IMG/VR virus record: IMGVR_UViG_3300032232_000272
DNA: 64,000 nucleotides
Origin: an uncultured virus (IMG/VR IMGVR_UViG_3300032232_000272)
Lineage: Duplodnaviria; Heunggongvirae; Uroviricota; Caudoviricetes
Reading direction: 5' to 3' (one strand)
Part shown: piece after piece, positions 7,699 to 32,189 of the stretch
How the letters are laid out: every line of letters starts with the position of its first letter
Position numbering within the stretch: the first letter of the stretch is position 1
Position numbers and translations under genes: made by a program
The notes under the pieces: model-generated
The model's database searches: none
What the model was told of the DNA's origin: nothing
Seen by the model: only the letters and a program-made list of their open reading frames with translations

Positions 7699-10600
7699 AT
7701 GGCATTTGATATACAGGGTGCCCTCAAAGAGGGCTACTCATTACCAGAGATTGTTGATTATCTTGGCGGTCAAAAAAAGTTTGACGTTGCAGGTGCTCGC
7801 AGTGAAGGGTACTCAGATCAAGAGATTTTAGACTTTTTAAGTCCAAAGAAGAAGGAAGAAGGCATTGGTACAGCACTACGCCGTGGTGCAGAACAGTTAG
7901 TATCTACAGGTCAAACAGCTCTAGAATCCATCACCAAAGGCGGTGAAGAAGCCGCGATTCGTGGTCGTGAGCGCCAAGCAGACATCCAAGCTAGATTAGG
8001 CGAAGGTGCTAGTCTGGATCGATTGCTAGAGACCTATCGTCAACAAGGTTTCTTAGCCGCTGGTAAAGAATTGGCAGGTCAAATTCCTACCGCTATTGCA
8101 GAGCAAGTGCCTGGCATTGCAACTACATTAGCTAGTGCTGGAGCTGGTGCCGCCGCTGGATCCGTTGTTCCTGGTGTTGGTACAGTAATAGGAGGTTTAG
8201 CCGGCGCAGTAGCCCCATCATTGATTCAACAGTATGGCGGTAACATTCAACGCCAAGCAGAGGCACAAGCAGCTACGGGTAAACCCTTAGAGATTGAGCG
8301 TGGTACAGCCGCTGTCACCGCACTTCCACAAGCAGCATTAGATGTAGCCGCCACATTTATTCCGTTGGGCGGTAAGTTAGCATCCTCAGTATTCGGCCCA
8401 AAGGTCGGGCAGATGTTGATGCAATCCAGTGCAGAGGGCAGAGAGAAGTTATTTAAAGAGTCGTTACTATCTACAGTCGGCAAAGGTACTGCTGTTGGTA
8501 TCGCCGCCGAAGTTCCTACTGAGGTTGTGCAGACCATGTTGGAGCGAGCACAAGCAGATTTGCCAGTGCTTAATAATGAAGCTCTCAAAGAATACGGTGA
8601 GGTAGCGTTTGCAACATCGTTACTAGGCCCAATCGGTATTATTGGACGGGTATCAAATAAAGCAGAAGCAGGACGCATGCTTGCTGAAGCCCAACAAAGG
8701 GCGGTAGAAACCAACGAACCACAGCCAGTAATACTACAACTTGGATATGATCCTACAGTTAGTGGCGCTGGTGGCACAGTCAATCCAGAACCGTTTATCG
8801 TATTCCCTGATGGTCGTGTAGCACCATCTGAAGAGGCAGCATTCAAAGAACGCTATGGCATGACGCCACAGCAACGCTCGGTTACTGAATCCTATGCTAG
8901 CGAAGAAGATCGTCTTGCCGCCGAGAAAGCCGCATATGATCGAGCCCGTAAATACTCGCCAACCATGCAAGCATTGGATAAATTGGTAGAAGATCGCAAG
9001 GCTAGAGAACAAGCGCAGATAGCCAAAGTTGATGAGATGAAAGCCGCACAATCGGCATTTAGTACAGCCGAACCAGTTGCTGGCTTATATCGCCCACCAA
9101 CAGCAGAAGAAATTGCCATTGAAGAAGAAAAGGCAAAACAGTTTACTAATACCCGCACAGTTATGCGTAAGACCCCAGAAGGCATCAAGGTCTACGAAGG
9201 CACTATGAATAAGACTGGTACTGCGGTCAATGTCATAGAGAATGGCAAAAAGCTCACCTTTAATCCAAACAATCCAAATGTTGTGATTGATCCTACTGAA
9301 AAGGATATCTATCGTTTTGAGACCGATTCAATGGCAGACGAAGCGCGGGCTCTTAGTGGTAAGGTAGAAGAGGCTAAGATTAAATTTAACAAGTCCGCAC
9401 TTGAGTTCAAGCAGTGGTTACGGGATCCCAAACACCAGCTCAAGCAAGAAGTATTCTCCGATACCATTGCTCCTCGCAAGCGTACCAAAGAAGATCAGTT
9501 CAGAGCTCTATCACCCAAGGTCAGCAAAGGATTCTTTGCTAAGAAACCAGGCGAGGGTCTTGAATTAGACATGGCAGCTGAGATGGCATTTGATGCTGGC
9601 TTCCTATCCGCAGATGAGTTTTATAACCCAGATGATCCAGACGGTAGAGAAGCATTTTCTGAGAAATTAAAAGCTGCTTACGACAATGAGCCAGTAGTAA
9701 CACCTAGATCAGCAGACCTATATTCCGATTATGAGACAGTCAATCAACAGCTCCGAGAACTGGAAGACGAGATTGAGCGCCGTAAATCAACTTTGGAGCA
9801 AGAGTCTCCAGCAGTTGTTGGCGAGCTAACTTCAGAAGAACAAGAAGCAGAAGCAGCTCGTATTGCAGAAGCGTCTACTCGTTATGAAAAGCCATTGCCG
9901 TCAGATAAATTTATTCAAGAGGGTTTGGATTTAGCAATAGAGATGCGTGATGCCTTAGATAAGATGGGACTAAAAAATGTAGGTCTTCAATTTGAAGACT
10001 ATATGTCACGTTATATCAATGGTGAATTAACAGAAGTTACAGGATCTTATTTTGAAAATTTAATTAAAGTATCTTTAGCCAGCACAAATGTTAAGCGCAC
10101 ATTAAATCACGAAGCTCTTCATGCAATGAGAGATATTGGATTATTTTCTGATGCTGAGTGGAAGATTTTATCTAATAAAGCAAAGAACCAATGGATTAAG
10201 AAATACGATCCAGATGGTAGCCGTTATGGTAGCGAGTCAATGGAAGTCCGTATTGAAGAAGCTATTGCCGACGCCTTTGCGGATTACAGAACTCAGCCAG
10301 CAAACATTAAGACTATCTTTGACAAGATCATTGACCTAATGGATATGATCCGTAACTACTTTGCTGGTCGTGGATTCAGAACGGTAGATGATGTATTTCA
10401 AAAAGCTGAGACTGGTGGATTAGACGGTCAAGGTACTTTACGTCAATGGGAAGAGTTGTATGAAATTAAACCACCTAAAGACCCACTTACAGATCAAGAG
10501 ATAACAAACACGTCTTGGTCAGATCAAATTGCTAGCAAACTGTTTGCTAATCGGGAATTACCAGATGGCACCAATGTTATGGTTAGACTTAATTTGAATG

Positions 10601-13600
10601 GTGTGGTTAAGCGTGGAGATCAGAAAATGCATCTCACAACTATCCATGAACCATTCTCCCAAAAACGAGATGGATCATTTTCTATTAGTGTTAAAAATGC
10701 CATTGGATATGACGGAGTTGTAACCATCCGTAATGTTAATTTTATTATTAATCAAAAAGCTAGAGCAGATATTTTCAAGGGAGAAAGTAAGTTGCCTATG
10801 GGTGGCGCACAAGGAGAAATTGTCCAAGGCGTTAGAGATCTAGAGGGAACTAGAATTACATTTAATCCAGCTCGAGAGCATTTATTTGTTCGTGTTGATG
10901 ACGGCAGACCTGTTAAATATGCAGACGAACTTACCATGTCTGACACTGATGTATTTGTAAGAGGGAATGTTGAATACTATACTCCAGAAAATATGCCACA
11001 ACCTCTGGACGATTTGCCTACGGCAGCTAACTTTGATGGAATTCCTTTATCTGAAACTAAAGTAAAGCGTGGGGAAATACCTGCTAAAAAAGAACAAAAA
11101 GAATTATTTGAAGTTCCATCCCGTGCAAAAGTACGAGCCCCGTTAACTGGTGTAGATCCAGCCTACGCAGACAAACTGCTCAAACAGTTTACCGCAGAGA
11201 AAGCTACTGTTAAACAGCGCTTTGAGAACCTAAAAGAAAACTTCTTTGAGCGTATGGTTATCGGCGTATTTGATGAGTTCCGTACCATTAAGAAATACAG
11301 CGATGAAGCCTACATGATGGCTCGTATGTCTAAGTCTATTGACGGTGGATTGCAGGGTCTATTGGAGCATGGTGAGGTATTTAACGATGGCGGTGCTCTT
11401 AACATTCGCCCAGGCACCAAAGGTCTTCTCAAGATCCTAGAGCCATTGGGCACTGAGGTAGACCAATACCAGATGTGGAAGGCGTTAAATCGTGATGCCA
11501 ACCTGCCAGCAGATAAGCGGTCTTTTGACCCAGAGTTATTAGCTGGTAGAGATCAGTTATCCAAAGGTCAGCTAAACGGCAAATCCCGTAAAGACATTTA
11601 TGAGAAGGCGTTGAAAGAAGAACAGGCGCTTAACCGTTCCGTATTAAAGGTTGCTTTAGATGCTGGCATTATTGATAAAGCTGGCTATGATCGTTTTGCT
11701 AGCGATATCTATTACATTCCTTTCTATAAGGCAATGGAAGACGGTGATGTGCAGTCCATCAGTGCATCGTCTAAGTTGACTGGGCAAGAGTTTAGTAAAT
11801 CATTAAAAGGCGGAGAGAAAAAAGTCAACGATTTGATGGAAAACGTCTTGATGAATTGGTCGCATATCCTTTCTGCTGCCATGAAAAACCAAGCCGCCAA
11901 TAAGACTTTAGAAGCCGCCGAAGACATGGGCGTTGCCAAGATCGCTAAACCAGTTGATGGTAAATATCCTCCAAACACCGTTAAGGTTATGAGGGATGGT
12001 CAGCCAGTTCGGATTGAGATTGAGGATGTAGGTCTAGTGGATGCTATTTCTACGATCAGCTATCTTGGGCCTAAGTCCATGTTCTTGGATGTTGCCAAAC
12101 ATTTTACTAACGCCTTGCGCTATGGTGTCACATTGTCTCCAGCCTATAAGCTACGCAACTTGATCCGTGATTCCATTTCCTCAGCAGCTGTGTCGCCATT
12201 GTCTAAGAATCTGTACCAGAACGTTTACAACGGCTTGAAAATGTCAGACAAAGGTAATCCAACCTACATGTCTGCATTAGCATCTGGCGGTATCTTTGAA
12301 ATGGGCGTGGCACACGAAGGCAATCAGGCTAAGTTAATCAAGCGTCTCATAGATAAGGGCGTTGACTACGGCACTATCCTAGATAGCCCTGAGAAAGTAA
12401 AAGGCGTACTACAGTCTGCATTGGATTGGTATAACACCCAAGGCAATCGATTTGAGAACGCTAACCGTCTAGCCCTATACGATAAGTTATTGAAGGAAGG
12501 CAAGACCCACCTTGAGGCTTCTTTCCAGGCTAGAGATTTAATGGACTTCTCCATGCAAGGGCAGTTCCGCGCAGTCAAAGTTCTTAGCTCTGTTGTGCCA
12601 TTCTTTAACGCCCGCTTACAGGGTCTCTATAAGCTCGGACGTGATGGTATCACCCCTACATACCGCCTGATCTACAACACGACAACTGGCAAGGAAGTTA
12701 CCGCATCCGATAAGCAAAAGGCTCAACGCTTTATGACAATCTCCGGCGCAGTTATGCTGGCGTCTATGGCTCTTTATGGCATGTATAAGGACGACGAAGA
12801 GTTTAAAAAGCGGGAAGATTGGGATCGTGATAACTTCTGGTGGTTTAAAATTGGTGATACTAAGTTCCGCATTCCTAAGCCATTTGAGATTGGCGCCCTT
12901 GGCACGATGGCAGAGCGTACCTTGGAACAGATTAGCGATGACAAGGTAGAAGGCAAAGTATTCTTTAACCGCATCAACCATATCCTTATGGACACATTTG
13001 CACTTAACCCAATCCCACAGATGGTTAAGCCAATGATTGACCTGTATTCCAATAAGGACAGCTTTACAGGGGCTCCAATCGTTTCTGCTGGCATGGAACG
13101 TCTATCCGCCCAAGAACGGATTACTAACAATACTAGTGGCATTGCTCAGGCTTTAGGAGGCATATCTGCTGGCATGCACAAAGTACTGACATTTAATCCA
13201 GACGCTCAAGGTATGTCTCCAGTACAGATTGACTACGCTATCAAGGCTTATCTAGGCTGGGCAGGATCTACCGCCGTAGCTACAGCAGACCTAGCCGTAG
13301 AGCCTTTTACAGAAGGCACACGAGTACGCAAGCCCGTGATTGACACGGTAGCTATGGGCTTTATTAAGACAGAGCCAGAGACCGCCTCTAAGTTTATGAC
13401 AGAGTTTTATGAAACAAATGCCCGCGTTCAATCCGCCTTGGCAGACATGCGCCATTATGCCGAATTAGGAGATTCCGAAAAGGTAGGGAAAATCCTTAGA
13501 GATCAAGGGGATGACATTGCGCTTGCAAAGTTGTATGATAAGACGTCAAAACAACTTGCTGAAATTCGTAAACAAATGCGTTTAATTGAACAAAGCAAGG

Positions 13601-13704
13601 ATATTGATACGGAAGACAAACGGGCAGAGATGAATCGCTTAAGAATTCTAATGTCCAAAATGACGGAAAACGTAGAAGGAATGAGGAAGTCACTGAAACA
13701 ATAG
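7699..13704 (+). CDS. Large polyvalent virion protein (zincin-like HExxH domain, LPD38-like C-terminus)
   Basis: 2001 aa; NHEALHAM...EEAIADAF; C-terminal DNFWWFKIG...RIPKPFEIG; hydrophobic N-terminal helices. Confidence 0.7.
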   Translation: MAFDIQGALKEGYSLPEIVDYLGGQKKFDVAGARSEGYSDQEILDFLSPKKKEEGIGTALRRGAEQLVSTGQTALESITKGGEEAAIRGRERQADIQARLGEGASLDRLLETYRQQGFLAAGKELAGQIPTAIAEQVPGIATTLASAGAGAAAGSVVPGVGTVIGGLAGAVAPSLIQQYGGNIQRQAEAQAATGKPLEIERGTAAVTALPQAALDVAATFIPLGGKLASSVFGPKVGQMLMQSSAEGREKLFKESLLSTVGKGTAVGIAAEVPTEVVQTMLERAQADLPVLNNEALKEYGEVAFATSLLGPIGIIGRVSNKAEAGRMLAEAQQRAVETNEPQPVILQLGYDPTVSGAGGTVNPEPFIVFPDGRVAPSEEAAFKERYGMTPQQRSVTESYASEEDRLAAEKAAYDRARKYSPTMQALDKLVEDRKAREQAQIAKVDEMKAAQSAFSTAEPVAGLYRPPTAEEIAIEEEKAKQFTNTRTVMRKTPEGIKVYEGTMNKTGTAVNVIENGKKLTFNPNNPNVVIDPTEKDIYRFETDSMADEARALSGKVEEAKIKFNKSALEFKQWLRDPKHQLKQEVFSDTIAPRKRTKEDQFRALSPKVSKGFFAKKPGEGLELDMAAEMAFDAGFLSADEFYNPDDPDGREAFSEKLKAAYDNEPVVTPRSADLYSDYETVNQQLRELEDEIERRKSTLEQESPAVVGELTSEEQEAEAARIAEASTRYEKPLPSDKFIQEGLDLAIEMRDALDKMGLKNVGLQFEDYMSRYINGELTEVTGSYFENLIKVSLASTNVKRTLNHEALHAMRDIGLFSDAEWKILSNKAKNQWIKKYDPDGSRYGSESMEVRIEEAIADAFADYRTQPANIKTIFDKIIDLMDMIRNYFAGRGFRTVDDVFQKAETGGLDGQGTLRQWEELYEIKPPKDPLTDQEITNTSWSDQIASKLFANRELPDGTNVMVRLNLNGVVKRGDQKMHLTTIHEPFSQKRDGSFSISVKNAIGYDGVVTIRNVNFIINQKARADIFKGESKLPMGGAQGEIVQGVRDLEGTRITFNPAREHLFVRVDDGRPVKYADELTMSDTDVFVRGNVEYYTPENMPQPLDDLPTAANFDGIPLSETKVKRGEIPAKKEQKELFEVPSRAKVRAPLTGVDPAYADKLLKQFTAEKATVKQRFENLKENFFERMVIGVFDEFRTIKKYSDEAYMMARMSKSIDGGLQGLLEHGEVFNDGGALNIRPGTKGLLKILEPLGTEVDQYQMWKALNRDANLPADKRSFDPELLAGRDQLSKGQLNGKSRKDIYEKALKEEQALNRSVLKVALDAGIIDKAGYDRFASDIYYIPFYKAMEDGDVQSISASSKLTGQEFSKSLKGGEKKVNDLMENVLMNWSHILSAAMKNQAANKTLEAAEDMGVAKIAKPVDGKYPPNTVKVMRDGQPVRIEIEDVGLVDAISTISYLGPKSMFLDVAKHFTNALRYGVTLSPAYKLRNLIRDSISSAAVSPLSKNLYQNVYNGLKMSDKGNPTYMSALASGGIFEMGVAHEGNQAKLIKRLIDKGVDYGTILDSPEKVKGVLQSALDWYNTQGNRFENANRLALYDKLLKEGKTHLEASFQARDLMDFSMQGQFRAVKVLSSVVPFFNARLQGLYKLGRDGITPTYRLIYNTTTGKEVTASDKQKAQRFMTISGAVMLASMALYGMYKDDEEFKKREDWDRDNFWWFKIGDTKFRIPKPFEIGALGTMAERTLEQISDDKVEGKVFFNRINHILMDTFALNPIPQMVKPMIDLYSNKDSFTGAPIVSAGMERLSAQERITNNTSGIAQALGGISAGMHKVLTFNPDAQGMSPVQIDYAIKAYLGWAGSTAVATADLAVEPFTEGTRVRKPVIDTVAMGFIKTEPETASKFMTEFYETNARVQSALADMRHYAELGDSEKVGKILRDQGDDIALAKLYDKTSKQLAEIRKQMRLIEQSKDIDTEDKRAEMNRLRILMSKMTENVEGMRKSLKQ

Positions 13705-24056: not shown

Positions 24057-25721
24057 TTCTTTTTTCTCTGTTTAAAGATCTTAGCTAACTTTTTTTCCCT
24101 CTCAGCTATCACCTCTGGCGGGGCATACTCGTCCAATTGATACACTTGTTTATAGGTATCAAACAACTTTTCTAGGCGCAGTTCTAGGTGGTTCTGAACC
24201 GCCATAATGCCGTTGCATAACTGATCTTCACTCATCTGGTCAGGATGATCCATATAACGCCATAGCAACGCATCTAGCTGGTCTGCGACGCTGTTTAGCA
24301 TATGGATCTCAGATTCAATGTAATGGTGCTCTTTCATGTCAGCATCAACTTTAAGCAAACAACCATCAAAACAAAGCAGCTAGAACAGAAAACAATCTTA
24401 TCAATCCAATACCGGCGGTTTAGAACGCCTGGATCATGGATCAAATACGACTGAATTAAGAGCATGTCACAGTCTTGCTCCACATACTTTGGTGGCTCAT
24501 AGTACTGACCGATTTTTACTTTTCCGTTGTTGTAATACTGTACTGGTTTCACGTTTTCTCCTTTATTAAAATAATGCCTCTGGTAACTTTAATTCTGGCG
24601 GTGGATCAACCTTCATATATCGGTATGTCCAATCCGTATAAGTTTTAATCAAATGCTCTGCCTCATGCTTGGTCTTAACCATGCGGATAGGCTGTCCAAA
24701 TTCGTCGTATAGCATGTACATTATTTAATCCCATGCCTTTCTTCAATGGCTCTAACAAACTTTAGATCTTCTTTGGTTAGCTCAGTAAACCCATATGCTT
24801 CACGGGCACACGCAACAATCTGATCCATGTCTAACGGTTTTGACTTGTAGATTCCGTGTAAAAATGGCTTTGGCTCCGTGACTACGGCATCCTCATAGCC
24901 AGGTTGGTACGGCGCTTCTGCTACATAATTTGGTTTACCCATTTCTTTCCTCGTCGTGTTTAATAATCCAATTTAATGCGTCTGTAAGAACATCAAATGT
25001 AGGCGATTGAACACCTTTATACTCCCAAAAATATGATGGTTTGTCTGCCACTTCCCATGTGTCATTTCTCCACTTGGCAGTTTTATTGTGAACAATATGT
25101 AGGTTCAATTCATTTCATCCAAAATGTCTTGATCTAAACAACGCAACATGCGCTCCAATGTTTCTCGCAAATCCGCAATATTTTCACCGCAAACGCTGAC
25201 GCCCTTAGAGGTATGGGCAAATACACTGCCGTCCTCTTCGTAATAGACTTCGCAGATCTCATACCAATCTTCGTCGCCCTTAAATTGCACCACTCGATGG
25301 TTCCACGAGCTCATTGCTCCCGCTCCTTCAATAGTTTTTCAGCGTAGTCAAACTCTTGTTTAAGCCTTGCTTCCAACTCCGCTATTCGGTCTGCTCTAGT
25401 ATCCCAACCCTTACTCCATGCGATGCACCATACATCGTAAAAGCCATTCAACGGAAAGCCCTCCTTATCAACCGCCCAACCCGCAACATCTTTGCGTTTA
25501 ATAAATGCTTCCCATGCCTTGTCTCTATCGGGGTTGTTGATTTGAATATCGTCAAACAATCCTGTATTCATTTCTCTCAGATCTTTCCGTCGTTTTTTGG
25601 CAAACGCTTCGGCTTCTTCTAAAGAACATACTTTGTACTCGTCGGCTTCTTTCATGTAGGTTCCTCGGTCTATTGCTTTAGCGACCTGACGTGCCTTATC
25701 AAAGAATTGTTTTTCATCCAT
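24053..25721 (-). other. Small hypothetical genes at the start of the leftward arm (24053-24358, 24334-24552, 24721-24942, 25105-25314, 25311-25721)
   Basis: Co-oriented overlapping ORFs, several with GAGG/GGAG RBS. Confidence 0.55.
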
Positions 25722-25796
25722 TTGCGTTTCCTCTATAATCATATTATGCACGAACCAAACAGGTTGTACCTAATCTATTTCATGTATTGTAATCTA

Positions 25797-25831: not shown

Positions 25832-26185
25832 ATGATTACATTCCAGTTCCCATACCCGCCATCCGTCAATTCGTACTGGCTACAGTCTGGTAAGCGTCGT
25901 TATATTTCCAAGCGGGGCGTAGAGTTTAAGAAAGCGGTGCATGAAATTTGTAAACAATCAGAAACATTTTTCGGCAACAAGCATGTTGAGGTATCCATCA
26001 TTCTGTTCCCGCGTGATAAGCGCCTCCTAGATATTGATAACTGCTGCAAAGCCATCCTTGATTCCATGAATGGGATTATGTTTGACGATGACCAGCAGGT
26101 CTGGAAGCTCACGGTAGAGCGCGGTGAAAAGATCAAGGGTGGTGGGTGTCAGGTAACCATCTCAGAATATAAGGGTAAACCCTAA
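25832..26185 (+). CDS. rusA: RusA Holliday junction resolvase
   Basis: PYPPSVNSYW, DIDNCCKAILD, DDDQQV motifs. Confidence 0.9.
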   Translation: MITFQFPYPPSVNSYWLQSGKRRYISKRGVEFKKAVHEICKQSETFFGNKHVEVSIILFPRDKRLLDIDNCCKAILDSMNGIMFDDDQQVWKLTVERGEKIKGGGCQVTISEYKGKP

Positions 26186-26221: not shown

Positions 26222-26309
26222 GGACGACTATTCTCCATGGCCGTCTTCATTTGTGATTTTCCTTGTATGTTTGGGGGTTGGCTTTCACGTGGCTGACCCC
26301 CTTTTTTTT
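26222..26309 (+). ncRNA. Candidate ~88-nt small RNA ending in an intrinsic terminator
   Basis: Promoter/SOS box upstream; 5' hairpin with UCUCC loop; terminator stem 26274-26300 followed by T9. Confidence 0.5.
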
Positions 26310-26418
26310 GGTGATTCGTAACATAAACGTTACCTTAACCCCACTTAATGTAATAAATACGATACATTGTTGCACTGCACCATTTATCGTAGTAGACTAT
26401 GGTTTTAAGGAGAAAACC

Positions 26419-26598
26419 ATGTTCAAACGCTATGCAGAAATCGCAGACCAAACTGTTTCAAACCTTGTAGACCTAGCACCTAAAATGCCTACGCCCGCCG
26501 AATACATTGACGCAGCGATCCAGGCAAACAAGTTATGGGCAAAGGTTGTAGAAGATTCTTTGGCTACCATGACCAAGGGTGTTTACAACTTTAAATAA
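26419..26598 (+). CDS. 59-aa amphipathic protein, possibly phasin-like
   Basis: AAGGAG RBS; helical Ala-rich sequence; TGTTGCACTGCACCA upstream at 26368-26382. Confidence 0.5.
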   Translation: MFKRYAEIADQTVSNLVDLAPKMPTPAEYIDAAIQANKLWAKVVEDSLATMTKGVYNFK

Positions 26599-26660
26599 TC
26601 TGTGGTAAATTAGTAGCACTAGGAGATTGTGGAAAATCTCCTTGTGTTACAATATCCGAA

Positions 26661-26966
26661 CAAGCCCCGTAGTGTATGGGGTCTATACCAGTATCTTTTG
26701 AGTTGGTTGGTTCGGTGACAACACAAAGGGTATTTTCCACATAGACCTCATACCTTACGGGGTTTTGCTTTTCTAGTGCCTGATCTGTTGGACGGGGAAT
26801 ACCACACCAGCGACAGATCTTGTAAGCGGACTGGGGGTAAGTAACTGAAACACCGCACAAAGGGATGGCGAAGGAAGAGTCCCTGTTACGCACGTCTTCC
26901 GGGTGCTGTGGCTCCGATTGGAAACGGCTGAAGGACGCATCAGGTGGGCAAGGTGCGTCCACCAAA
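26661..26966 (+). ncRNA. Candidate large structured RNA / leader
   Basis: Extended -10 TGTTACAAT at 26645-26653; at least six helices and three loop-distal complementarities; no credible ORF. Confidence 0.6.
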
Positions 26967-27015
26967 TGGAAACAGAGACTGTGTTAGACATATACAGAGA
27001 TATACAGGGAGGGGC

Positions 27016-27204
27016 ATGGAAGTCCGAAAAATGTTGCAAAAACAAATAGGGATAATCCCTGATAGCGTAAAAACTGGATCCGTGCAAAATGTAATCCAGT
27101 GGAAAGAAAAAGCAGAACGGGCAACGAAATTATTAAAAAACCCTAGAGCGTCAGTCCGTGAAATGCAAGACGCACTAGAACAATTACAGAGGATAAGCAA
27201 ATGA
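27016..27204 (+). CDS. Hypothetical protein (62 aa)
   Basis: GGAGG RBS before ATG 27016; stop overlaps the ParB-like gene. Confidence 0.55.
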   Translation: MEVRKMLQKQIGIIPDSVKTGSVQNVIQWKEKAERATKLLKNPRASVREMQDALEQLQRISK

Positions 27205-28007
27205 ACTTGAAGTTAAGCGATATACGCGTTGATGGAGATTTACAAGTAAGGGCTACGATCAATGATGCAGTTGTCTCAGATTATTACGACATCCTACGAG
27301 AGGGTGGCAAGCTCCCTCCAGTTATTGTGTTCTTTGACAGTGCGCAGTATCACCTGGCTGATGGATACCACCGCTTCCATGCTCACAAGTCTGCGGGCTT
27401 GGCTCTCATTGAAGCAGATGTCCGTGAAGGAACGAAACGGGACGCAATGCTCTACGCCTTGGGCGCTAATGCAGAACATGGTTTCCGTAGAACTGCACAA
27501 GATAAGCACAAAGCAGTCACGATTATGCTCAATGATATGGAGTGGGGTGAGTGGTCTGACCGAGAGATTGCAAAGCAGTGCAAAGTATCTCATCCATTTG
27601 TTTCAAAGGTTCGCAAAGAACTAGGTGCTGATACCGACGCCGTAAAGTACAGCCGTAACGGTAAAGAGCAGACCAGAAAGAAAGCAAAAAAAGATGCGCA
27701 GAGTGAAGATCAATCTGAGCCAAACCCTCTTGAGACTAAGGTTCAGGAACTTGCAACGGAGTATGCTGAACTGGCGGAAGAGAAGGCAAAACTGGAAGAC
27801 AGGATTGCGGTCGCCGCAGTGGATGCGACAGAGGAAGAAAAGAATCAATACGCTGAAACTTTGGAGTCTCTCCGCTCACAAGTTAAAACTTTGGAGGTTG
27901 AGAACAGAGCGCTAAAGGCGACTCGCTCGGCATTACAAGACGAGAACAATCAGTTGAAGAAGCAAGTGAATTATTGGAAAAAACAAGCACAGAAAGGGAC
28001 TAAATGA
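27201..28007 (+). CDS. ParB/Srx N-terminal domain protein with HTH and coiled coil
   Basis: LPPVIV...LADGYHRFHA ParB box; WSDREIAKQCKVSHPFVSKVR HTH. Confidence 0.8.
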   Translation: MNLKLSDIRVDGDLQVRATINDAVVSDYYDILREGGKLPPVIVFFDSAQYHLADGYHRFHAHKSAGLALIEADVREGTKRDAMLYALGANAEHGFRRTAQDKHKAVTIMLNDMEWGEWSDREIAKQCKVSHPFVSKVRKELGADTDAVKYSRNGKEQTRKKAKKDAQSEDQSEPNPLETKVQELATEYAELAEEKAKLEDRIAVAAVDATEEEKNQYAETLESLRSQVKTLEVENRALKATRSALQDENNQLKKQVNYWKKQAQKGTK

Positions 28008-28206
28008 TTCGGTCAAACATTGAGCCGGCAGATTACGAACAGGCACAGATCATCTTACAAAGCACGATGGATTGCTTGGGCAGTAACGAGCCGACTGAAT
28101 TTCAATCGTTAATCATTGATAACTTAAAGAGAGTCATTGACGAATTTAGACTAACCATGACGCATTAAAGCGACGCTGGGCGCTTTCCCAGCAGATAGGA
28201 ATACAA

Positions 28207-29691
28207 ATGTTAGAGTTGCGCGAGCATCAGCTCGAAGTAGTGGAGAAATTAAACGAAGGTTTTGCCAACGGCCACACCAGGCAGTTGTTGTATGCACCAA
28301 CAGGATTTGGTAAGACCGAGGTAGCAATGGCTATTATGAAAGCCGTTGCTGACAATTATCAGAAGACCGCCATGGTCTTGGATCGTATCGTCTTGGTCAA
28401 TCAAACAAGTATGCGTCTTGCCCGTTATGGTATTGAGCATGGCGTGATGCAATCAGGGCACTGGAGAGAGCGCCCATACGAAAAGATCCAAGTCTGTTCG
28501 GCCCAGACCCTAGAAAAGCGTAAGAATACACCAGACATTGATCTATTGATTATTGACGAGTGCCACGTCCTGCGCCGTTCTACTGTTAACTTCTTAAAAG
28601 ATAACCCCCAAATCAAGGTCATTGGATTGACCGCTACGCCATTCACCAAAGGTTTGGGTGATATCTATACCCATATCATTGGCGCATCTCCTACGGGCGA
28701 TCTGATTGAAAAGGGATGGCTTGTCCCGCTTAAAGTATTTATCGCTAAAGAGATTGATATGACAGGCGTTAAGAAGATTGCGGGCGAATGGTCTGCTGAC
28801 CAAGTATCTGAACGTGGTATGCGTATCGTTGGGGATGTCGTATCTGAATGGGCTAAGAAAACTTATGAGATCTTTGGTAAGCCCGTTAAGACTATCGTAT
28901 TCTGCGCCGGCGTAGATCATGGCAAAGAGTTAGCAAAGCGATTTGAAGATGCAGGATTTAACTTTAAGTCAATCTCCTACAAAGAGGACGACGACTACAA
29001 GAGAATGATTATTGAGGATTTCTCCCGACCTGATACCGATATCAATGGGCTGATTGCTACAGACATTCTGACCCGTGGATTTGATGTTACCGATGTAATG
29101 ATTGGTGTATCAGCAAGACCCTTCTCAAAATCATTCTCTTCCCATGTTCAGCAGATGGGGCGCGTAATGCGTCCGCATGAGGGCAAAGAGTATGGGGTAT
29201 GGCTAGATCACTCTGGCAATTACCTTCGATTCAAAGACGATTGGGATCGGGTGTTTGACTATGGCGTTGACTCCCTGGATGGTGGTCTTGAAGAGAAGGC
29301 TAAGAAAGAGCCGACTGAGAAAGAAAAAGTAGAAGCCAAGTGCCCATCTTGTGGTGCGCTATGGATTTGGAAGTCGGATGAGTGCGGTGAATGCGGGCAC
29401 ATCAAGAAGAAGATCGCACAGATCCAAGTATTGGATGGTGAACTGCAAGAGTTAGCCGTTGCCAATTCCAAACTAAAGATTGATAACCGACAGTTTTTCC
29501 AAGAACTTATGCACTACGCCACATCTCGTGGATACAAGGAGGGTTGGGCAGCTCACAAATATAAAGAGAAATTCGGAGTCTTTCCTAAGAACATACCAAA
29601 AGAAATGAAGCCTCCGTCGCCACAGACATTGAGTTGGATTAAGAGTCGCATGATCGCATACAGTAAATCAAAACAGAGGATAGCAGCATGA
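28207..29691 (+). CDS. Superfamily 2 DExH helicase with Zn ribbon
   Basis: APTGFGKT, DECH, LTATP, QQMGRVMR, CPSC...CGEC. Confidence 0.9.
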   Translation: MLELREHQLEVVEKLNEGFANGHTRQLLYAPTGFGKTEVAMAIMKAVADNYQKTAMVLDRIVLVNQTSMRLARYGIEHGVMQSGHWRERPYEKIQVCSAQTLEKRKNTPDIDLLIIDECHVLRRSTVNFLKDNPQIKVIGLTATPFTKGLGDIYTHIIGASPTGDLIEKGWLVPLKVFIAKEIDMTGVKKIAGEWSADQVSERGMRIVGDVVSEWAKKTYEIFGKPVKTIVFCAGVDHGKELAKRFEDAGFNFKSISYKEDDDYKRMIIEDFSRPDTDINGLIATDILTRGFDVTDVMIGVSARPFSKSFSSHVQQMGRVMRPHEGKEYGVWLDHSGNYLRFKDDWDRVFDYGVDSLDGGLEEKAKKEPTEKEKVEAKCPSCGALWIWKSDECGECGHIKKKIAQIQVLDGELQELAVANSKLKIDNRQFFQELMHYATSRGYKEGWAAHKYKEKFGVFPKNIPKEMKPPSPQTLSWIKSRMIAYSKSKQRIAA

Positions 29692-29861
29692 GAAAATACA
29701 TAAAGAAAACACATTACGAAATGACCTACGATGAGATCGCCAAAGAACTAGGCGTGAGCAGAGAGGCAGTCGCCGAAGTTTGCAAAAGGGCAGAGGCTAA
29801 AGTTAAAGAAGCCCTTAAACAAAAAGGGATAGACCCTGATGATCTATATGGTGAACTATGA
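29688..29861 (+). CDS. Sigma70 region-4-like HTH protein (57 aa, not in ORF track)
   Basis: MTYDEIAKELGVSREAV; ATGA overlaps at both ends. Confidence 0.65.
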   Translation: MRKYIKKTHYEMTYDEIAKELGVSREAVAEVCKRAEAKVKEALKQKGIDPDDLYGEL

Positions 29862-31384
29862 ATTACTTATCCGTATGCTCAGGAGTTGAAGCCGCCACAG
29901 TAGCGTGGCATTCAATGGGATGGAAGCCCGTAGGTTTCTCGGAGATTGAGAAGTTTCCATCAGCAGTTTTACAACATCATTACCCTCAAATAAAAAACTA
30001 TGGGGATATGACTACATATAAGGAGTGGGATATAAATGACACAGTTGGACTTTTGGTCGGAGGGACTCCCTGCCAATCATTCTCAGTCGCAGGACTACGC
30101 AAAGGACTTGAAGACCCCAGGGGAAACCTTGCCCTTACCTATGTTGGAATACTTGACCGCTTTAAACCCAAGTGGTTCATTTGGGAAAACGTGCCGGGCG
30201 TCCTCAGTTCAAACGGTGGACGGGACTTTGGTTCCTTCCTTGGGGCGGTGGCAGAATGCGGGTATGGGTTCGCATACAGGGTGCTTGACGCTCAATACTT
30301 CGGAGTTCCCCAAAGACGCAGACGTGTGTTTGTTGTCGGATGTCTTGGAGATTGGGAATCTGCCGCAAAAGTTTTATTTGAGCCCGACTGCTTGCGCGGG
30401 GATACTCCGCCGAGCAGAGAAAAGGGGAAAGAAACTCCCGGAGTTACTACAAATCGCCTTGTCGCATTCGGTGAATACTCAGACGATGGAGTCGCCAGCA
30501 CCATAAAGGCACGGGACTGCAAAGGGCATACAGATCTAATCGTTTATGAGACCCATCCCGCAGACTCAAGAGTCAAAGATATGGGTGATGTATGTCAAAC
30601 AGTAACCTCAAGATGGGGCACAGGTGGTGGAAATGTGCCATTGGTTCAGTCTGTTGGGTTTACGCAGTGTGATGCAGCAAGAGATGTTGGTATAAATGTA
30701 AGCCCGACCCTCCGCTCTGGCGGTAATGGCGGGTATCCTAGCCATTCTGTTGCCTATGGGTTTGAACCAGGCATCTCTAAAAGGGAAGGGAATCCAAATA
30801 GATTTTCTGAAGAACTTTCCCCAACACTAAGGGCGCAGATGGGAGATAACCAAGCCGCAGTCGCTTATTCCATCCGTGAAGACGCAAAAGCAAACAACTT
30901 TAGTGCTACCCCGTTACATGTAACGCCCGCTCTCCAGGCACTGCGTCCGTCAGTTCAATCTCACCATGCTCAGACTTTTATCGTGGATCGTGCAGCTTTT
31001 AATCAGGGAGAGAACGCACAATATGAGCCTAGGATTGAAGAGTCCGACACCATGTCTACTTTGGTAGCAAGAGGCCCGCATGCCGTTGCGCAGTCCTTCA
31101 ATGTTAATGCTAGACCTGATGAGATGAAGTTGGAGACGGAGATCTCTGGCACATTAACTTCTAGTCAAAACGCTGGTCTGTTTCAAGACATGGCAGTCCG
31201 CCGTCTTACTCCCGTGGAATGCGAAAGACTTCAAGGGTTTCCTGATAACTACACTCAGATCCCATGGGGCAAAGGTGATACTCCTGATAGCCATCGATAC
31301 AAGGCTATGGGTAATTCAATGGCAGTCCCATGCATGCAGTGGATTGGTGATCGTATTCAAAAGGTAGAAAATGGACTTCTTTAG
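29858..31384 (+). CDS. DNA (cytosine-5)-methyltransferase with long modular variable region
   Basis: SVCSGVE (I), GGTPCQSFS (IV), ENVPG (VI), PQRRRR (VIII), RRLTPVECERLQGFP (IX), YKAMGNS (X). Confidence 0.95.
   Translation: MNYLSVCSGVEAATVAWHSMGWKPVGFSEIEKFPSAVLQHHYPQIKNYGDMTTYKEWDINDTVGLLVGGTPCQSFSVAGLRKGLEDPRGNLALTYVGILDRFKPKWFIWENVPGVLSSNGGRDFGSFLGAVAECGYGFAYRVLDAQYFGVPQRRRRVFVVGCLGDWESAAKVLFEPDCLRGDTPPSREKGKETPGVTTNRLVAFGEYSDDGVASTIKARDCKGHTDLIVYETHPADSRVKDMGDVCQTVTSRWGTGGGNVPLVQSVGFTQCDAARDVGINVSPTLRSGGNGGYPSHSVAYGFEPGISKREGNPNRFSEELSPTLRAQMGDNQAAVAYSIREDAKANNFSATPLHVTPALQALRPSVQSHHAQTFIVDRAAFNQGENAQYEPRIEESDTMSTLVARGPHAVAQSFNVNARPDEMKLETEISGTLTSSQNAGLFQDMAVRRLTPVECERLQGFPDNYTQIPWGKGDTPDSHRYKAMGNSMAVPCMQWIGDRIQKVENGLL
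30036..30506 (+). CDS. Nested alternative-frame polypeptide, M.EcoHK31I-beta-like
   Basis: 156 aa in the +1 frame with AGGAG 10 nt before ATG; WQNAGM...LSDVLE...FYLSPTACAGILRRAEKRGKKLP. Confidence 0.6.
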   Translation: MTQLDFWSEGLPANHSQSQDYAKDLKTPGETLPLPMLEYLTALNPSGSFGKTCRASSVQTVDGTLVPSLGRWQNAGMGSHTGCLTLNTSEFPKDADVCLLSDVLEIGNLPQKFYLSPTACAGILRRAEKRGKKLPELLQIALSHSVNTQTMESPAP

Positions 31385-32189
31385 ATTTGCAGAACACCAT
31401 GGGTTAATTATTGATAACCTAGTCTCTGATCGTTGGGTTCGTGTGCCTACGATTGACCATCCAGGCAAACGCAATGGCGCTTATATCTTCAATGGATCCA
31501 ATGGCGCAGTGCAGAATTGGGCCTTGCATGAGAAACCCATAACATGGCGGGATAAAAACTATAAGCATGACCCTCAATTACAAATCAGGGTAAAAAAATC
31601 CCAAGACGATCAGGTTGTCCGGCAAGATAAGGCAGCAAAGAAGGCGGGATGGATACTCAATAATGCAGTCAAATCTACCCATCCATATCTCGCTAAGAAG
31701 GGATTCCCTGATGAGAAAGGGTATGTATGGGAAGGTCTATTGGTAATCCCTATGCGGGTGGATGGCAGTCTGGTTGGATGCCAATTGATCGATGCCAATG
31801 GCACTAAGAAATTCTTGTATGGGCAGAGAACCAAGGGCGCGTCTGCTTGCTTTGATAATAAGGGCAGCATCATTCTCTGTGAGGGATACGCTACCGCTTT
31901 ATCAATTCGTAAAATCTTAAAGAAAAGCATGACCCGCTACTGTATTCATGTGTGTTTTTCTGCGGGCAATTTGGTTGAAGTAGCCAAGTCGTATCCCAAT
32001 TGCGTGATCGTGGCAGACAATGATCCTGTTGGCATTCGATCGGCTAAGAAGACGGGTCGTCCGTATTGGGTATCCCCAAACCAGGGGGAAGACTTTAATG
32101 ATTATGAGTTAAGGGTAAACCCTAAGACTGCTAAAGACTTACTGAATCTGATCGGTGGGAGAACTGATAAAGACACTCTCACGGACTAG
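31371..32189 (+). CDS. Toprim-domain primase
   Basis: HPYLAKKG, LVIPM, LCEGYATA, VADND, DFND. Confidence 0.85.
   Translation: MDFFRFAEHHGLIIDNLVSDRWVRVPTIDHPGKRNGAYIFNGSNGAVQNWALHEKPITWRDKNYKHDPQLQIRVKKSQDDQVVRQDKAAKKAGWILNNAVKSTHPYLAKKGFPDEKGYVWEGLLVIPMRVDGSLVGCQLIDANGTKKFLYGQRTKGASACFDNKGSIILCEGYATALSIRKILKKSMTRYCIHVCFSAGNLVEVAKSYPNCVIVADNDPVGIRSAKKTGRPYWVSPNQGEDFNDYELRVNPKTAKDLLNLIGGRTDKDTLTD

What the first reader, a model, noticed from the sequence alone, without database searches (positions are those of the whole stretch)
26661..26966. ~300-nt promoter-preceded RNA with multiple potential pseudoknots in front of the ParB-helicase-primase operon
Seen: an extended -10 (TGTTACAAT 26645-53) places a start near 26660. 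Domain 1 is a ~105-nt hairpin (CCCCGTAG 26665-72/TTACGGGG 26755-62; GTATGGGGTCTAT 26674-86/ATAGACCTCATAC 26741-53) ending in a U-rich run. Domain 2 has stems 26782-90/26811-19, GTAAC 26841-45/GTTAC 26885-89, AGGGAT 26861-66/GTCCCT 26879-84, GCTGT 26905-09/ACGGC 26924-28 and GGACGCATC 26933-41/GGTGCGTCC 26952-60. Loops match distal segments: CCAG 26807-10/CTGG 26831-34 with TACC/GGTA, GGAAGA 26873-78/TCTTCC 26895-900, CGGA 26827-30/TCCG 26913-16. Many stem mismatches are G-U on the + strand, which favours an RNA. Inference: a compact, ribozyme- or riboswitch-like RNA. No initiator or polymerase gene is visible, so it could be an RNA-based origin/primer (ColE1 RNA II-like) or an attenuator of the replication operon. 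I do not recognise it as a named family.
Basis: partly seen in the sequence, partly recalled or inferred. Interest (0 to 1): 0.85.

Follow-up and report, generated by a model that had tools for sequence, protein, structure and literature searches.

The report
Known orphan phage RNA, extended
The flagged stretch is a real, intricately folded phage RNA whose core already has a database entry (Rfam Betaproteobacteria-1) but no known function, and it proves to be larger and more knotted than that entry shows.

Summary
Window 26665-26973 (+) encodes a three-domain structured RNA. Its centre, 26781-26904, is a full-length match to Rfam RF02932, Betaproteobacteria-1 RNA (85.9 bits, cut-off 49.4). So it is a named family, though one with no assigned function.

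About 99 homologues came from viral contigs. It also supports three pseudoknots that the Rfam model line printed does not mark.

The conserved RNA runs about 70 nt past the Rfam model, through two more hairpins. This part holds a ~23-nt direct repeat that varies between phages but is kept alike within each phage. I cannot explain the repeat.

It recurs in about half of the loci, often 30-37 nt behind a sigma-70-like promoter.

The RNA sits beside helicase/primase genes, sometimes before and sometimes after them. That argues against a classical riboswitch.

The mechanism is open. My best guess is cis control of transcription read-through (about 0.3). The rivals are a trans-acting RNA and an origin RNA. 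Transcription is not shown.

The parts
26582..26611 (+). Sigma-70-like promoter candidate, TTTACA-18-TAAATT with TG before the -10
   Evidence: In the family a promoter-like site lies in the 130 nt before domain 1 in 14 of 33 loci, against 41 of 710 control windows. Function not shown.
26621..26642 (+). Small leader hairpin between the promoter candidate and domain 1
   Evidence: Fold of the upstream region. L006 has a comparable small hairpin at the same place. Not tested further.
26645..26653 (+).
   Evidence: The sequence is present and identical in L001. No start-site data.
26665..26762 (+). Domain 1: a long (98-nt) hairpin with internal-loop motif TTTTCCAC at 26733-40
   Evidence: Folds as one hairpin. 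Comparable hairpins of 60-122 nt, with a YUUCCACC-type 3'-side internal loop in many of them, stand 11-28 nt before P1 in about 33 of 74 loci. Outer stem: 78.1% paired against 59.4% in shuffles, 10 of 10 pairs with compensatory changes (rows were pre-selected for pairing).
26763..26773 (+). U-rich run (TTTTGCTTTTC) after domain 1; together they look like a long-stem intrinsic terminator
   Evidence: Not picked up by the simple terminator scan, whose loop limit is 8. Termination not tested.
26781..26904 (+). Domain 2: full-length Rfam RF02932 (Betaproteobacteria-1 RNA). It holds P1 26782-90/26811-19, P2 26826-29/26853-56, P3 26873-78/26895-900, PK1 26805-10/26831-36, PK2 26841-45/26885-89 and helix A/A' 26862-66/26879-83. 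A/A' and P3 together form an H-type pseudoknot.
   Evidence: Rfam hit: 85.9 bits against a cut-off of 49.4, model positions 1-120 of 120. Covariation in all seven helices.
26905..26928 (+). P4 hairpin (GCTGT/ACGGC). Its loop holds the invariant GGCTCC (26910-15) and repeat core X (TGGAAAC, 26919-25).
   Evidence: 5 of 5 pairs show compensatory changes; 90.7% paired. Outer pairs are also seen on the plain MAFFT alignment.
26929..26964 (+). Conserved TGAAGG linker (26929-34), P5 hairpin (26933-41/26952-60), then ACCA (26961-64)
   Evidence: The P5 region has a mean MFE z-score of -3.44 in 75 sequences. Pair counts. Model R1 of domain 3 finds it next to the core in 82 of 100 sources, 35 of which were seeds; the window scores 61.6 bits.
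26901..26925 (+). Direct-repeat copy 1 (GGGTGCTGTGGCTCC GATTGGAAAC)
   Evidence: Identity-type covariation with copy 2. The phage's own copy 2 is the best or tied-best partner of copy 1 in 43 of 75 sequences; for the X part alone, in 54 of 75.
26951..26973 (+). Direct-repeat copy 2 (AGGTGCGTCCACC AAATGGAAAC). This is the 3' strand of P5 plus the tail X', and marks the end of conservation.
   Evidence: No complementary 'anti-X' element sits at a consistent place in the flanks held for 88 loci, up to 3 kb each side for the first 80 loci and 300 nt for the rest.

Best explanation
Identity (confidence about 0.95). Window 26665-26973 (+), possibly starting near 26618 or 26660, encodes a non-coding RNA of about 310 nt in a phage or prophage. 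It has three domains.
- D1 is a long-stem hairpin followed by a U-run.
- D2 (26781-26904) is a full-length member of Rfam RF02932, Betaproteobacteria-1 RNA. It folds compactly: P1 and P2 kiss through their loops (PK1), the P2 loop also pairs with a loop of an H-type pseudoknot (PK2), and the single-stranded stretches UGGCGAAG and CG(R)G are invariant, the first fixed by my search pattern.
- D3 has two hairpins (P4, P5) and a ~23-nt direct repeat kept in concert within each phage.

Mechanism (inferred; about 0.3). The RNA is made as part of the early/replication transcript. Either it has its own sigma-70 promoter followed by D1, or it forms the tail of the preceding gene, often the primase gene. 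I think it acts in cis on transcription read-through at a module boundary. D1 would be a long-stem terminator or insulator. D2 would be the fold that engages the elongating polymerase or a factor, as put RNA of HK022 does. D3 would be a two-state element in which the 5' strand of P5 can pair with either repeat copy.

Shown: the family membership, the structure, the gene contexts and the promoter-like sites. Inferred: transcription itself, termination at D1, any contact with RNA polymerase, and the switch in D3.
For: Identity:
- RF02932 scores 85.9 bits against a cut-off of 49.4, E 2e-14, and covers the whole model.
- All 20 of 20 homologous loci tested also pass the cut-off, at 79-104 bits.
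- A near-identical relative keeps 26778-27030 unchanged while the flanks vary.

Structure. Strand: G.U 263 against A.C 65 cells.

Embedded in operons:
- A same-strand ORF ends within 25 nt before, or overlaps the first 45 nt of, the RNA in 20 of 69 loci.
- A Toprim_3 primase gene lies upstream on the same strand in 22 of 69 loci, and an SF2 helicase gene on the same strand in 17 of 69, upstream except in L003 and L024.
- Only 9 of 69 loci have a strict terminator within 220 nt downstream of the RNA, against 74 of 710... see note: control windows gave 74 of 906.
- Downstream coding lies mostly on the RNA strand in 55 of 66 loci.

Promoter followed by a terminator-like hairpin:
- 14 of 33 D1 loci have a promoter-like site, against 41 of 710 control windows. 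Its -10 ends 30-37 nt before D1 in 11 of them, and seven carry a perfect TTGACA.

Precedents:
- put RNA is a cis-acting phage RNA that makes RNA polymerase termination-resistant without any protein (PMC9378689, passages read).
- Long stems make terminators resist processive antitermination (PMC10325885, abstract read).
Against: - No transcript is shown. The RNA-library data are contigs only, and one contig includes the promoter-like sequence itself.
- D1 lies upstream of D2, so D2 cannot help the polymerase pass D1.
- In the window there is no terminator-like site on the + strand between 26973 and 32189 for an antiterminator to act on. Rho-dependent sites could not be assessed.
- In 11 of 66 loci the downstream genes are mostly on the other strand, so nothing is left there to read into.
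- The 83% same-strand figure is about what any phage locus would give.
- put RNA is about 70 nt with two stem-loops and shows no likeness to this RNA.
- The identity of X and X' is not explained by a P5 switch, because X has no partner in the RNA.
- No conserved protein partner is encoded next to the RNA.
Confidence: 0.4

Rival explanations
1. A trans-acting phage RNA: a small RNA, a protein sponge or decoy, or a tRNA-like mimic. D2 would bind a host or phage macromolecule through its invariant loops. The recurring 'hairpin + YCCACC(A)' modules in D1 and D3 would be repeated binding or processing sites. P5 followed by ACCA resembles a tRNA acceptor minihelix or an RNase P substrate.
For: - Rfam files the family as 'Gene; sRNA'.
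- Its position is independent of neighbouring gene identity and direction, and includes ends of transcription units that face convergent genes, such as L042 and L025.
- It has its own strong promoter in many loci.
- Its spread is sporadic, like an accessory gene: 1 of 3 related named phages and 2 of 151 genomes of one order.
- ACCA follows P5 in most sequences, and A-rich sequence comes next.
Against: - There is usually no terminator of its own (9 of 69 loci), so its 3' end would have to come from processing.
- ARAGORN finds no tRNA or tmRNA.
- The ACCA is replaced by other letters in a minority of sequences.
- No conserved seed or target complementarity was found nearby.
- Expression is not shown.
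Confidence: 0.25
2. An origin-associated RNA for helicase-primase phage replicons that lack a classical initiator. The transcript (R-loop or primer, ColE1 RNA II-like or T4 oriF/G-like) or its gene would mark where the helicase and primase load. The AT-rich, repeat-bearing DNA just downstream would be the unwinding or iteron region.
For: - It is adjacent to replication genes in about 28 of 69 loci.
- No initiator gene is recognised in the window's module.
- The 120 nt after X' are 59.2% AT against 48.9% in control windows, and carry about twice the repeated 7-mers, 15.8 against 7.5 nt covered.
- The cumulative GC-skew minimum lies near 26 kb.
Against: - The control windows are mostly coding, and any intergenic DNA is AT-rich.
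- The skew minimum coincides with the switch in transcription direction.
- Related helicase-primase phages lack the RNA (Pseudomonas phage PS-1 and MW202426.1).
- In L006 the RNA sits before terminase genes.
- No antisense promoter or antisense RNA partner was seen.
Confidence: 0.12
3. A riboswitch-like sensor. D2 would be a ligand-binding aptamer and D3 its expression platform, with the two repeat copies competing for the 5' strand of P5.
For: - A compact pseudoknotted fold with invariant unpaired nucleotides.
- Copy 1 starts right at the 3' edge of D2 and mirrors the 3' strand of P5. That is the geometry of a switching sequence.
Against: - Downstream genes have no common theme, and the distance to the next ORF varies.
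- P5 is not followed by a U-run, and no ribosome-binding site is sequestered at a fixed place.
- The only terminator-like element, D1, lies upstream of the would-be aptamer.
- No Rfam riboswitch family matches.
Confidence: 0.08
4. A transcript-stability or processing element. D1 would be an RNase III-type site or a terminator that ends the upstream message. D2-D3 would be a knotted block that protects the upstream replication mRNA from 3'-to-5' decay, or sets processing sites at the two repeat copies.
For: - The RNA abuts the stop codon of the preceding gene in 20 of 69 loci.
- D1 is a long double-stranded hairpin.
- The two repeat copies lie about 46-58 nt apart and could give a unit-length product if both were cut.
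Against: - Simple hairpins would do for protection, so the invariant loops and three pseudoknots seem more than is needed.
- The concerted evolution of the repeat is not needed for host RNases.
- Nothing was tested.
Confidence: 0.08
5. The folded molecule is single-stranded DNA, for example a primase or primosome loading signal on the displaced strand, and not RNA.
For: - Covariation shows pairing in a single strand but not its chemistry.
- It lies next to primase and helicase genes.
- Transcription is not shown.
Against: - G.U (G.T) pairs are frequent and conserved, 263 cells, several of them nearly fixed.
- Three pseudoknots and invariant loops are typical of RNA tertiary folds.
- A promoter-like site stands in front in many loci.
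- The family was curated as an RNA.
Confidence: 0.05

Closest known systems
Rfam RF02932, Betaproteobacteria-1 RNA. I recall it comes from the comparative-genomics survey of Weinberg et al. 2017, PMC5737381. The main text does not name it and the supplement could not be read.
   Same: Window 26781-26904 matches the whole 120-position model at 85.9 bits. The three hairpins P1-P3 are the same. It is a member.
   Different: - The model line printed marks no pseudoknots; three covary here.
- The model stops at CGGGU, while the conserved RNA goes on about 70 nt (P4, P5, direct repeat) in 82 of 100 sources.
- About half of the loci add a 5' long-stem hairpin domain.
- Most copies I found are in viral contigs, not cellular genomes.
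put RNA of phage HK022, and other RNA-based processive antiterminators such as EAR (recalled)
   Same: A phage-encoded structured RNA inside early transcripts, near a promoter, needing no dedicated neighbouring protein gene. It acts, or here would act, in cis on read-through.
   Different: put is about 70 nt with two stem-loops and lies upstream of the terminators it overcomes (PMC9378689, passages read). This RNA is about 190-310 nt with pseudoknots and has a terminator-like hairpin in front of it. No sequence or model likeness. Contact with RNA polymerase was not tested.
P1/P7 C4 RNA and P4 CI RNA (immunity RNAs processed by RNase P; recalled, not read here)
   Same: Structured phage RNAs in the leader of an operon (for P4, the replication operon). 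Phage-specific direct repeats flank or accompany the RNA, and a helix is followed by CCA.
   Different: In those systems the repeats are targets complementary to loops of the RNA. Here no complement to X/X' sits at a consistent place within the flanks held, up to 3 kb. No Rfam family other than RF02932 matches.
ColE1 RNA II and T4 oriF/oriG origin transcripts (recalled)
   Different: No antisense regulator, no defined RNA-DNA hybrid site, and the RNA is missing from related replicons. Nothing here shows priming.
Long-stem, antitermination-resistant intrinsic terminators (TerR of plasmid pLS20; PMC10325885, abstract read)
   Same: D1 has a GC-rich stem base, an unusually long stem and a U-run, and stands at the end of an upstream operon in the loci that follow a primase gene.
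   Different: D1 carries a conserved internal-loop motif and is often preceded at 30-37 nt by its own promoter, which a plain end-of-operon terminator would not need. Termination not tested.

Membership tests
Rfam RF02932 Betaproteobacteria-1 RNA | Covariance-model score at or above the curated gathering score | tested here: met
   85.9 bits against 49.4; E 2e-14 over 64 kb; 3.1e-16 over 1 kb.
Rfam RF02932 Betaproteobacteria-1 RNA | Full-length match to the model, not truncated | tested here: met
   Model positions 1-120 of 120, not cut off.
Rfam RF02932 Betaproteobacteria-1 RNA | The three model hairpins are present and kept by compensatory changes in relatives | tested here: met
   P1: 8 of 8 pairs with compensatory changes. 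P2: 5 of 5. P3: 3 of 6, the other three never vary; two of these (A-U, G-C) had one side fixed by my search pattern.
Rfam RF02932 Betaproteobacteria-1 RNA | Occurrence in Betaproteobacteria or their phages | tested here: inconclusive
   The window's own assembly is not held. Named carriers found: Acidovorax phage AP1, host Paracidovorax oryzae, and a Roseateles MAG. I recall both as Betaproteobacteria.
Riboswitch (aptamer plus expression platform in a 5' leader) | Fixed position upstream of a functionally coherent gene set | tested here: not met
   The RNA lies before or after replication genes, before terminase genes, or facing convergent genes.
Riboswitch (aptamer plus expression platform in a 5' leader) | Ligand-dependent structural change | not testable with these tools
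   Needs in-line probing or binding assays.
put-type processive antiterminator RNA | About 70 nt, two stem-loops, just downstream of an early promoter and upstream of the terminators bypassed | tested here: not met
   The architecture differs. The terminator-like D1 lies upstream. The window has no intrinsic terminator in the downstream operon. Feature list from PMC9378689.
put-type processive antiterminator RNA | Binds RNA polymerase and suppresses termination | not testable with these tools
   Needs in vitro transcription.
C4/CI-type antisense immunity RNA | Loops complementary to the flanking direct-repeat targets | tested here: not met
   No complement to X/X' recurs at a consistent place in the flanks held for 88 loci, up to 3 kb, nor within the RNA.
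tRNA / tmRNA-like RNA | Recognised by a tRNA/tmRNA detector | tested here: not met
   ARAGORN finds 0 genes in the window.
Protein-coding ORF (minus-strand ORF 26591-26965, 124 aa; plus-strand ORF 26865-26987) | A conserved open frame or a family match | tested here: not met
   No Pfam or PHROG match. The frame opening at NTG GCG AAG runs 3-46 codons in 75 homologues. The open minus-strand frames fit the purine-rich composition of the + strand.

The most novel reading that the evidence does not exclude
The three domains would form one self-contained phage riboregulator of a kind not yet described. A constitutive promoter would fire into a long-stem terminator (D1). D2 would be a knotted sensor or effector fold that binds RNA polymerase, another macromolecule or a small molecule. 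D3 would be a bistable element whose duplicated strand (copy 1 = copy 2, including the partnerless X/X') lets the RNA toggle or be read twice. Possible uses are timing the switch from early transcription to replication or late transcription, or handing a 3' tail to the helicase-primase machinery. The concerted ~23-nt repeat would then be the specificity determinant that differs between phages.
Probability: 0.15. Interest if true: 0.75.

Novelty: new member of a known kind. Interest (0 to 1): 0.45.

Why it matters
RF02932 is one of many 'orphan' structured RNAs: it is catalogued but has no function.

This case shows three things. The family is mainly a phage RNA. And it is tied to helicase-primase replication modules.

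The printed Rfam consensus also under-describes it. Three pseudoknots, a 3' domain and an optional 5' domain are missing.

An RNA of about 120 nt with three covarying pseudoknots and invariant loops is the kind of fold seen in ribozymes, aptamers and polymerase-binding RNAs. The family is therefore a good candidate for structural and functional work.

The direct repeat, kept alike within each phage but differing between phages, is an unusual feature. It gives a concrete handle for experiments: swap or mutate one copy.

For the scan itself, the result is sobering.

Tried and rejected
- blastn of the intergenic region and of the phage AP1 RNA against 50,697 phage records found nothing beyond AP1 itself. 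The family is too divergent for BLAST.
- The pattern scan of genome contigs gave 120 rows, of which only 2 are true homologues (L163, L219). The rest are chance matches, so the scan says nothing about taxonomy.
- Papers: 'Betaproteobacteria-1' gave 3 irrelevant hits. 'RF02932' gave 0. A six-term search on phage RNA, primase and origin gave 2 irrelevant hits. The 2017 survey's main text does not mention the motif and its supplement could not be read; it may hold the authors' consensus drawing and comments.
- RNA evidence consists only of assembled contigs. A 317-nt metatranscriptome contig of a relative covers 26656-26915 plus 54 nt upstream, promoter-like sequence included. A 162-nt contig from a run guessed to be RNA covers 26901-27059. 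Neither shows a start, an end or a strand, so I draw no conclusion on expression.
- The search for a complement to X/X' found no consistent site.
- GC skew is confounded by transcription direction.
- That search's shuffled control was too permissive: 43 of 74 shuffles reached the score. The D1 count therefore rests on inspection and on covariation.
- The impression that a terminator follows the RNA did not hold. Only 9 of 69 loci have one, against 74 of 906 control windows.
- The small-ORF reading (ATG/GTG GCG AAG) was rejected.
- Also considered and set aside: hammerhead or other known ribozymes (no Rfam hit), a retron (no reverse transcriptase gene), a type III antitoxin (no conserved toxin gene downstream), and a CRISPR-like mini-array (the segment between the copies is conserved and paired).
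Full report
**What is there.** The finding lies in a 417-nt gap between a 59-aa ORF (26419-26598) and a 62-aa ORF (27016-27204), both on the + strand. The neighbouring genes are those of a phage:
- RusA (25832-26185), followed by a strong terminator (26273-26301).
- After the gap: a ParB-like protein (27201-28007), an SF2 helicase (28207-29691), a small HTH protein, a C5 DNA methyltransferase, and a Toprim primase (31371-32189).

**It is a named family.** A scan of the whole window against Rfam at the curated thresholds gives one match: RF02932, Betaproteobacteria-1 RNA, at 26781-26904 (+). It scores 85.9 bits against a gathering score of 49.4, E 2e-14, and covers all 120 model positions.
- A permissive scan of 26300-27300 adds only chance-level microRNA matches on the first hairpin, E 1.2-7.1.
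- The + strand folds better than shuffles (-113.5 kcal/mol, z -2.78). The - strand does not (z -1.17).
- I found no paper that discusses the family. Searches for 'Betaproteobacteria-1' (3 irrelevant hits) and 'RF02932' (0 hits) gave nothing. The main text of the 2017 survey does not mention it, and its supplement could not be read.

**Relatives.** The window's own assembly is not held. A virus record (G001/L001) is 95% identical over the region. It keeps 26778-27030 letter for letter, while the upstream ORF and the loop of the first hairpin vary.

By inspection, 21 are chance matches and 99 are homologues. All 20 of 20 homologues that I re-scanned pass the Rfam cut-off at 79-104 bits, and no other family occurs in those loci.

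In cellular genomes the family is sporadic:
- 2 true hits among 120 pattern matches.
- 2 of 151 genomes sampled from the order of one carrier.
- One genome with two copies.

Among three named phages with a related helicase, only Acidovorax phage AP1 carries it, at OM049504.1 11856-11979, 35 nt after the primase stop, 93.4 bits.

**Structure of the core.** I used a plain MAFFT alignment of 75 distinct sequences (A3). A mutual-information scan, RNAalifold and pair counts agree on these helices:

| Helix | Window coordinates |
|---|---|
| P1 | 26782-90 / 26811-19 |
| P2 | 26826-29 / 26853-56 |
| P3 | 26873-78 / 26895-900 |
| PK1 (P1 loop with P2 loop) | 26805-10 / 26831-36 |
| PK2 (P2 loop with the loop between A' and P3) | 26841-45 / 26885-89 |
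| A/A' (forms an H-type pseudoknot with P3) | 26862-66 / 26879-83 |

Over 37 pairs, 89.1% of cells pair, against 66.3% in shuffles (0 of 500 as high). The covariation score is 0.605 against 0.187, and slid controls give 0.10-0.13. Six pairs never vary, and four of them had at least one side fixed by my search pattern.

G.U pairs outnumber A.C by 263 to 65, or 188 to 65 without the pattern-fixed pair. So the + strand is the folded one.

The proposed CGGA/TCCG pairing is not supported. TACC/GGTA was not tested.

**The RNA is longer than the Rfam model.** Conservation continues past CGGGU, through:
- P4 (26905-09/26924-28), whose loop holds the invariant GGCTCC.
- A TGAAGG linker.
- P5 (26933-41/26952-60).
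- ACCA and a tail, ending at 26973.

On a MAFFT alignment of 35 sequences, P4 and P5 give 79.6% paired against 68.6%, and covariation 0.408 against 0.225.

A covariance model of this 3' domain (R1) finds it next to the core in 82 of 100 sources. Of these, 35 were seeds; the window scores 61.6 bits. On the resulting alignment, 84.7% of cells pair against 69.2%. All five P4 pairs show compensatory changes. That alignment is fitted to the structure and so leans towards it. The P5 region has a mean MFE z-score of -3.44 in 75 sequences; for P4 the value is -1.12.

**An unexplained direct repeat.** The segment 26901-25 (the end of D2, the 5' strand of P4, GGCTCC and X) mirrors 26951-73 (the 3' strand of P5, CCACC and X').
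- The variable letters change together within a phage (identity-type covariation).
- Copy 1 scores 18.2 against its own copy 2, but 10.8 against copy 2 of other phages.
- The phage's own X' is the best or tied-best match of X in 54 of 75 sequences.
- The spacing is mostly 46-58 nt.

The first half of the repeat could be explained if the 5' strand of P5 must be able to pair with either copy. The X half has no complementary partner, either in the RNA or at any consistent place in the flanks held, up to 3 kb.

**Domain 1.** In about 33 of 74 loci, a hairpin domain of 60-122 nt ends 11-28 nt before P1. It has a GC-rich base, a T-run and inner hairpins, and in many loci a 3'-side internal loop of the type YUUCCACC (TTTTCCAC at 26733-40 in the window).

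Its outer stem covaries: 78.1% paired against 59.4%, with 10 of 10 pairs compensatory. The rows were chosen for arm complementarity, and my shuffled control for that choice was weak. I dropped L019, L063, L074 and L103.

A sigma-70-like promoter lies in the 130 nt before this domain in 14 of 33 loci, against 41 of 710 control windows. Its -10 ends 30-37 nt before the hairpin in 11 of them, and seven have a perfect TTGACA.

Which one is used is unknown. AP1-type loci, where the RNA follows the primase stop codon directly, have no domain 1.

**Context.**
- A Toprim_3 primase gene lies upstream on the same strand in 22 of 69 loci. An SF2 helicase gene lies on the same strand in 17 of 69, upstream except in L003 and L024 (Pfam was run on 150 of 203 ORFs of 100 aa or more).
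- In the window, L003 and L024, the RNA precedes ParB-like plus helicase genes.
- In L015, L047 and L063 it lies upstream of a Toprim-DnaB fusion; in L047 and L063 smaller ORFs intervene.
- In L006 it precedes the terminase subunits.
- In 20 of 69 loci a same-strand ORF ends at the RNA's 5' edge.
- No protein family is a constant neighbour.
- A strict terminator follows within 220 nt in only 9 of 69 loci, against 74 of 906 control windows.
- Downstream coding lies mostly on the RNA strand in 55 of 66 loci and mostly opposite in 11.
- The 120 nt after X' are AT-rich (59.2% against 48.9%) and richer in repeats, but the controls are mostly coding DNA.
- In the window, the + strand has no terminator-like site from 26973 to 32189.

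**Not coding.**
- The minus-strand ORF 26591-26965 and the other overlapping ORFs have no Pfam or PHROG match.
- The frame that opens at the invariant NTG GCG AAG stays open for only 3-46 codons in homologues.
- Open minus-strand frames fit the purine-rich composition of the + strand.

**Expression.** It is not shown. Public RNA libraries gave only assembled contigs of relatives. One 317-nt metatranscriptome contig spans 26656-26915 plus 54 nt upstream. It includes the promoter-like sequence, so it says nothing about a start site.

**How it may work.** The identity as an RF02932 RNA is secure. The mechanism is inferred.

The RNA is embedded in transcription units. It usually has no terminator of its own. 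It sometimes has its own promoter followed by a terminator-like long hairpin. These features make me favour a cis role in transcription read-through at a module boundary (about 0.3). The precedents are put RNA (PMC9378689) and long-stem terminators that resist antitermination (PMC10325885).

Against this reading:
- D1 lies upstream of D2.
- The window's downstream operon has no intrinsic terminator.
- 11 of 66 loci face convergent genes.
- The X/X' identity stays unexplained.

The rivals are a trans-acting or decoy RNA (0.25), an origin or primer RNA (0.12), a riboswitch (0.08), a stability or processing element (0.08) and a single-stranded DNA signal (0.05).

**Verdict.** The finding is a real and well-drawn structure, but it is a member of a catalogued family. 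What this analysis adds is the phage context, three pseudoknots, the 3' and 5' domains and the concerted repeat.

Noticed in passing
window 26273-26301 (+): A strong intrinsic terminator (11-bp stem, 7 G-C pairs, T8) ends the short rusA unit. That unit has its own promoter-like site at 25711-25739 (10 of 12 matches).
   Followed up: partly
window 26310-26400 compared with L001 1015-1110: Between two otherwise 95%-identical phages, the ~90 nt just after the rusA terminator are replaced by unrelated sequence, a mosaic joint. The RNA region downstream stays identical.
   Followed up: no
window 29858-31384 (+): A 508-aa C5 cytosine methyltransferase sits between the helicase and primase genes. Pfam matches it in two separate stretches, which suggests a large insertion. 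A 57-aa sigma-70 region-4-like HTH protein (29688-29861) precedes it.
   Followed up: no
L031, L058, L072, L076, L088, L090: A divergent subfamily keeps the pseudoknot core. It has a different 5' part and, in place of P4/P5, a GC-rich element rich in GCGC repeats. Model R1 does not detect its 3' domain.
   Followed up: no
L015 2881-3108 (-), L089: A variant 3' domain lacks P4. P5 is followed by a GC-rich hairpin (GCGCCCC...GGGGCGC), and these loci continue into a Toprim-DnaB fusion gene.
   Followed up: no
L012, L014, L036, L060, L066, L078, L101 (100 nt after X'): In the subfamily followed by a 2OG-Fe(II) oxygenase gene, the DNA after the RNA carries 3-4 copies of a motif of the type (A/T)RTAAG(G/T), then an intrinsic terminator. 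The window instead has ATATACAG twice (26991-27009).
   Followed up: partly
G003 contigs C107 25722-25838 and C32 69520-69636: One bacterial genome holds two copies of RF02932 (104.6 and 96.7 bits), presumably in two prophages.
   Followed up: no
D1 internal loop (window 26733-40) and D3 (26957-64): A 'hairpin followed by YCCACC' module occurs both inside domain 1 and after P5. A related GGCTCC sits in the P4 loop. These could be repeated sites for one partner. I saw no covariation with the GGNTGG of the core.
   Followed up: partly
window 7699-13704 (+): A 2001-aa ORF, the longest in the window, lies in the co-directional block upstream of the region studied. I did not examine it.
   Followed up: no
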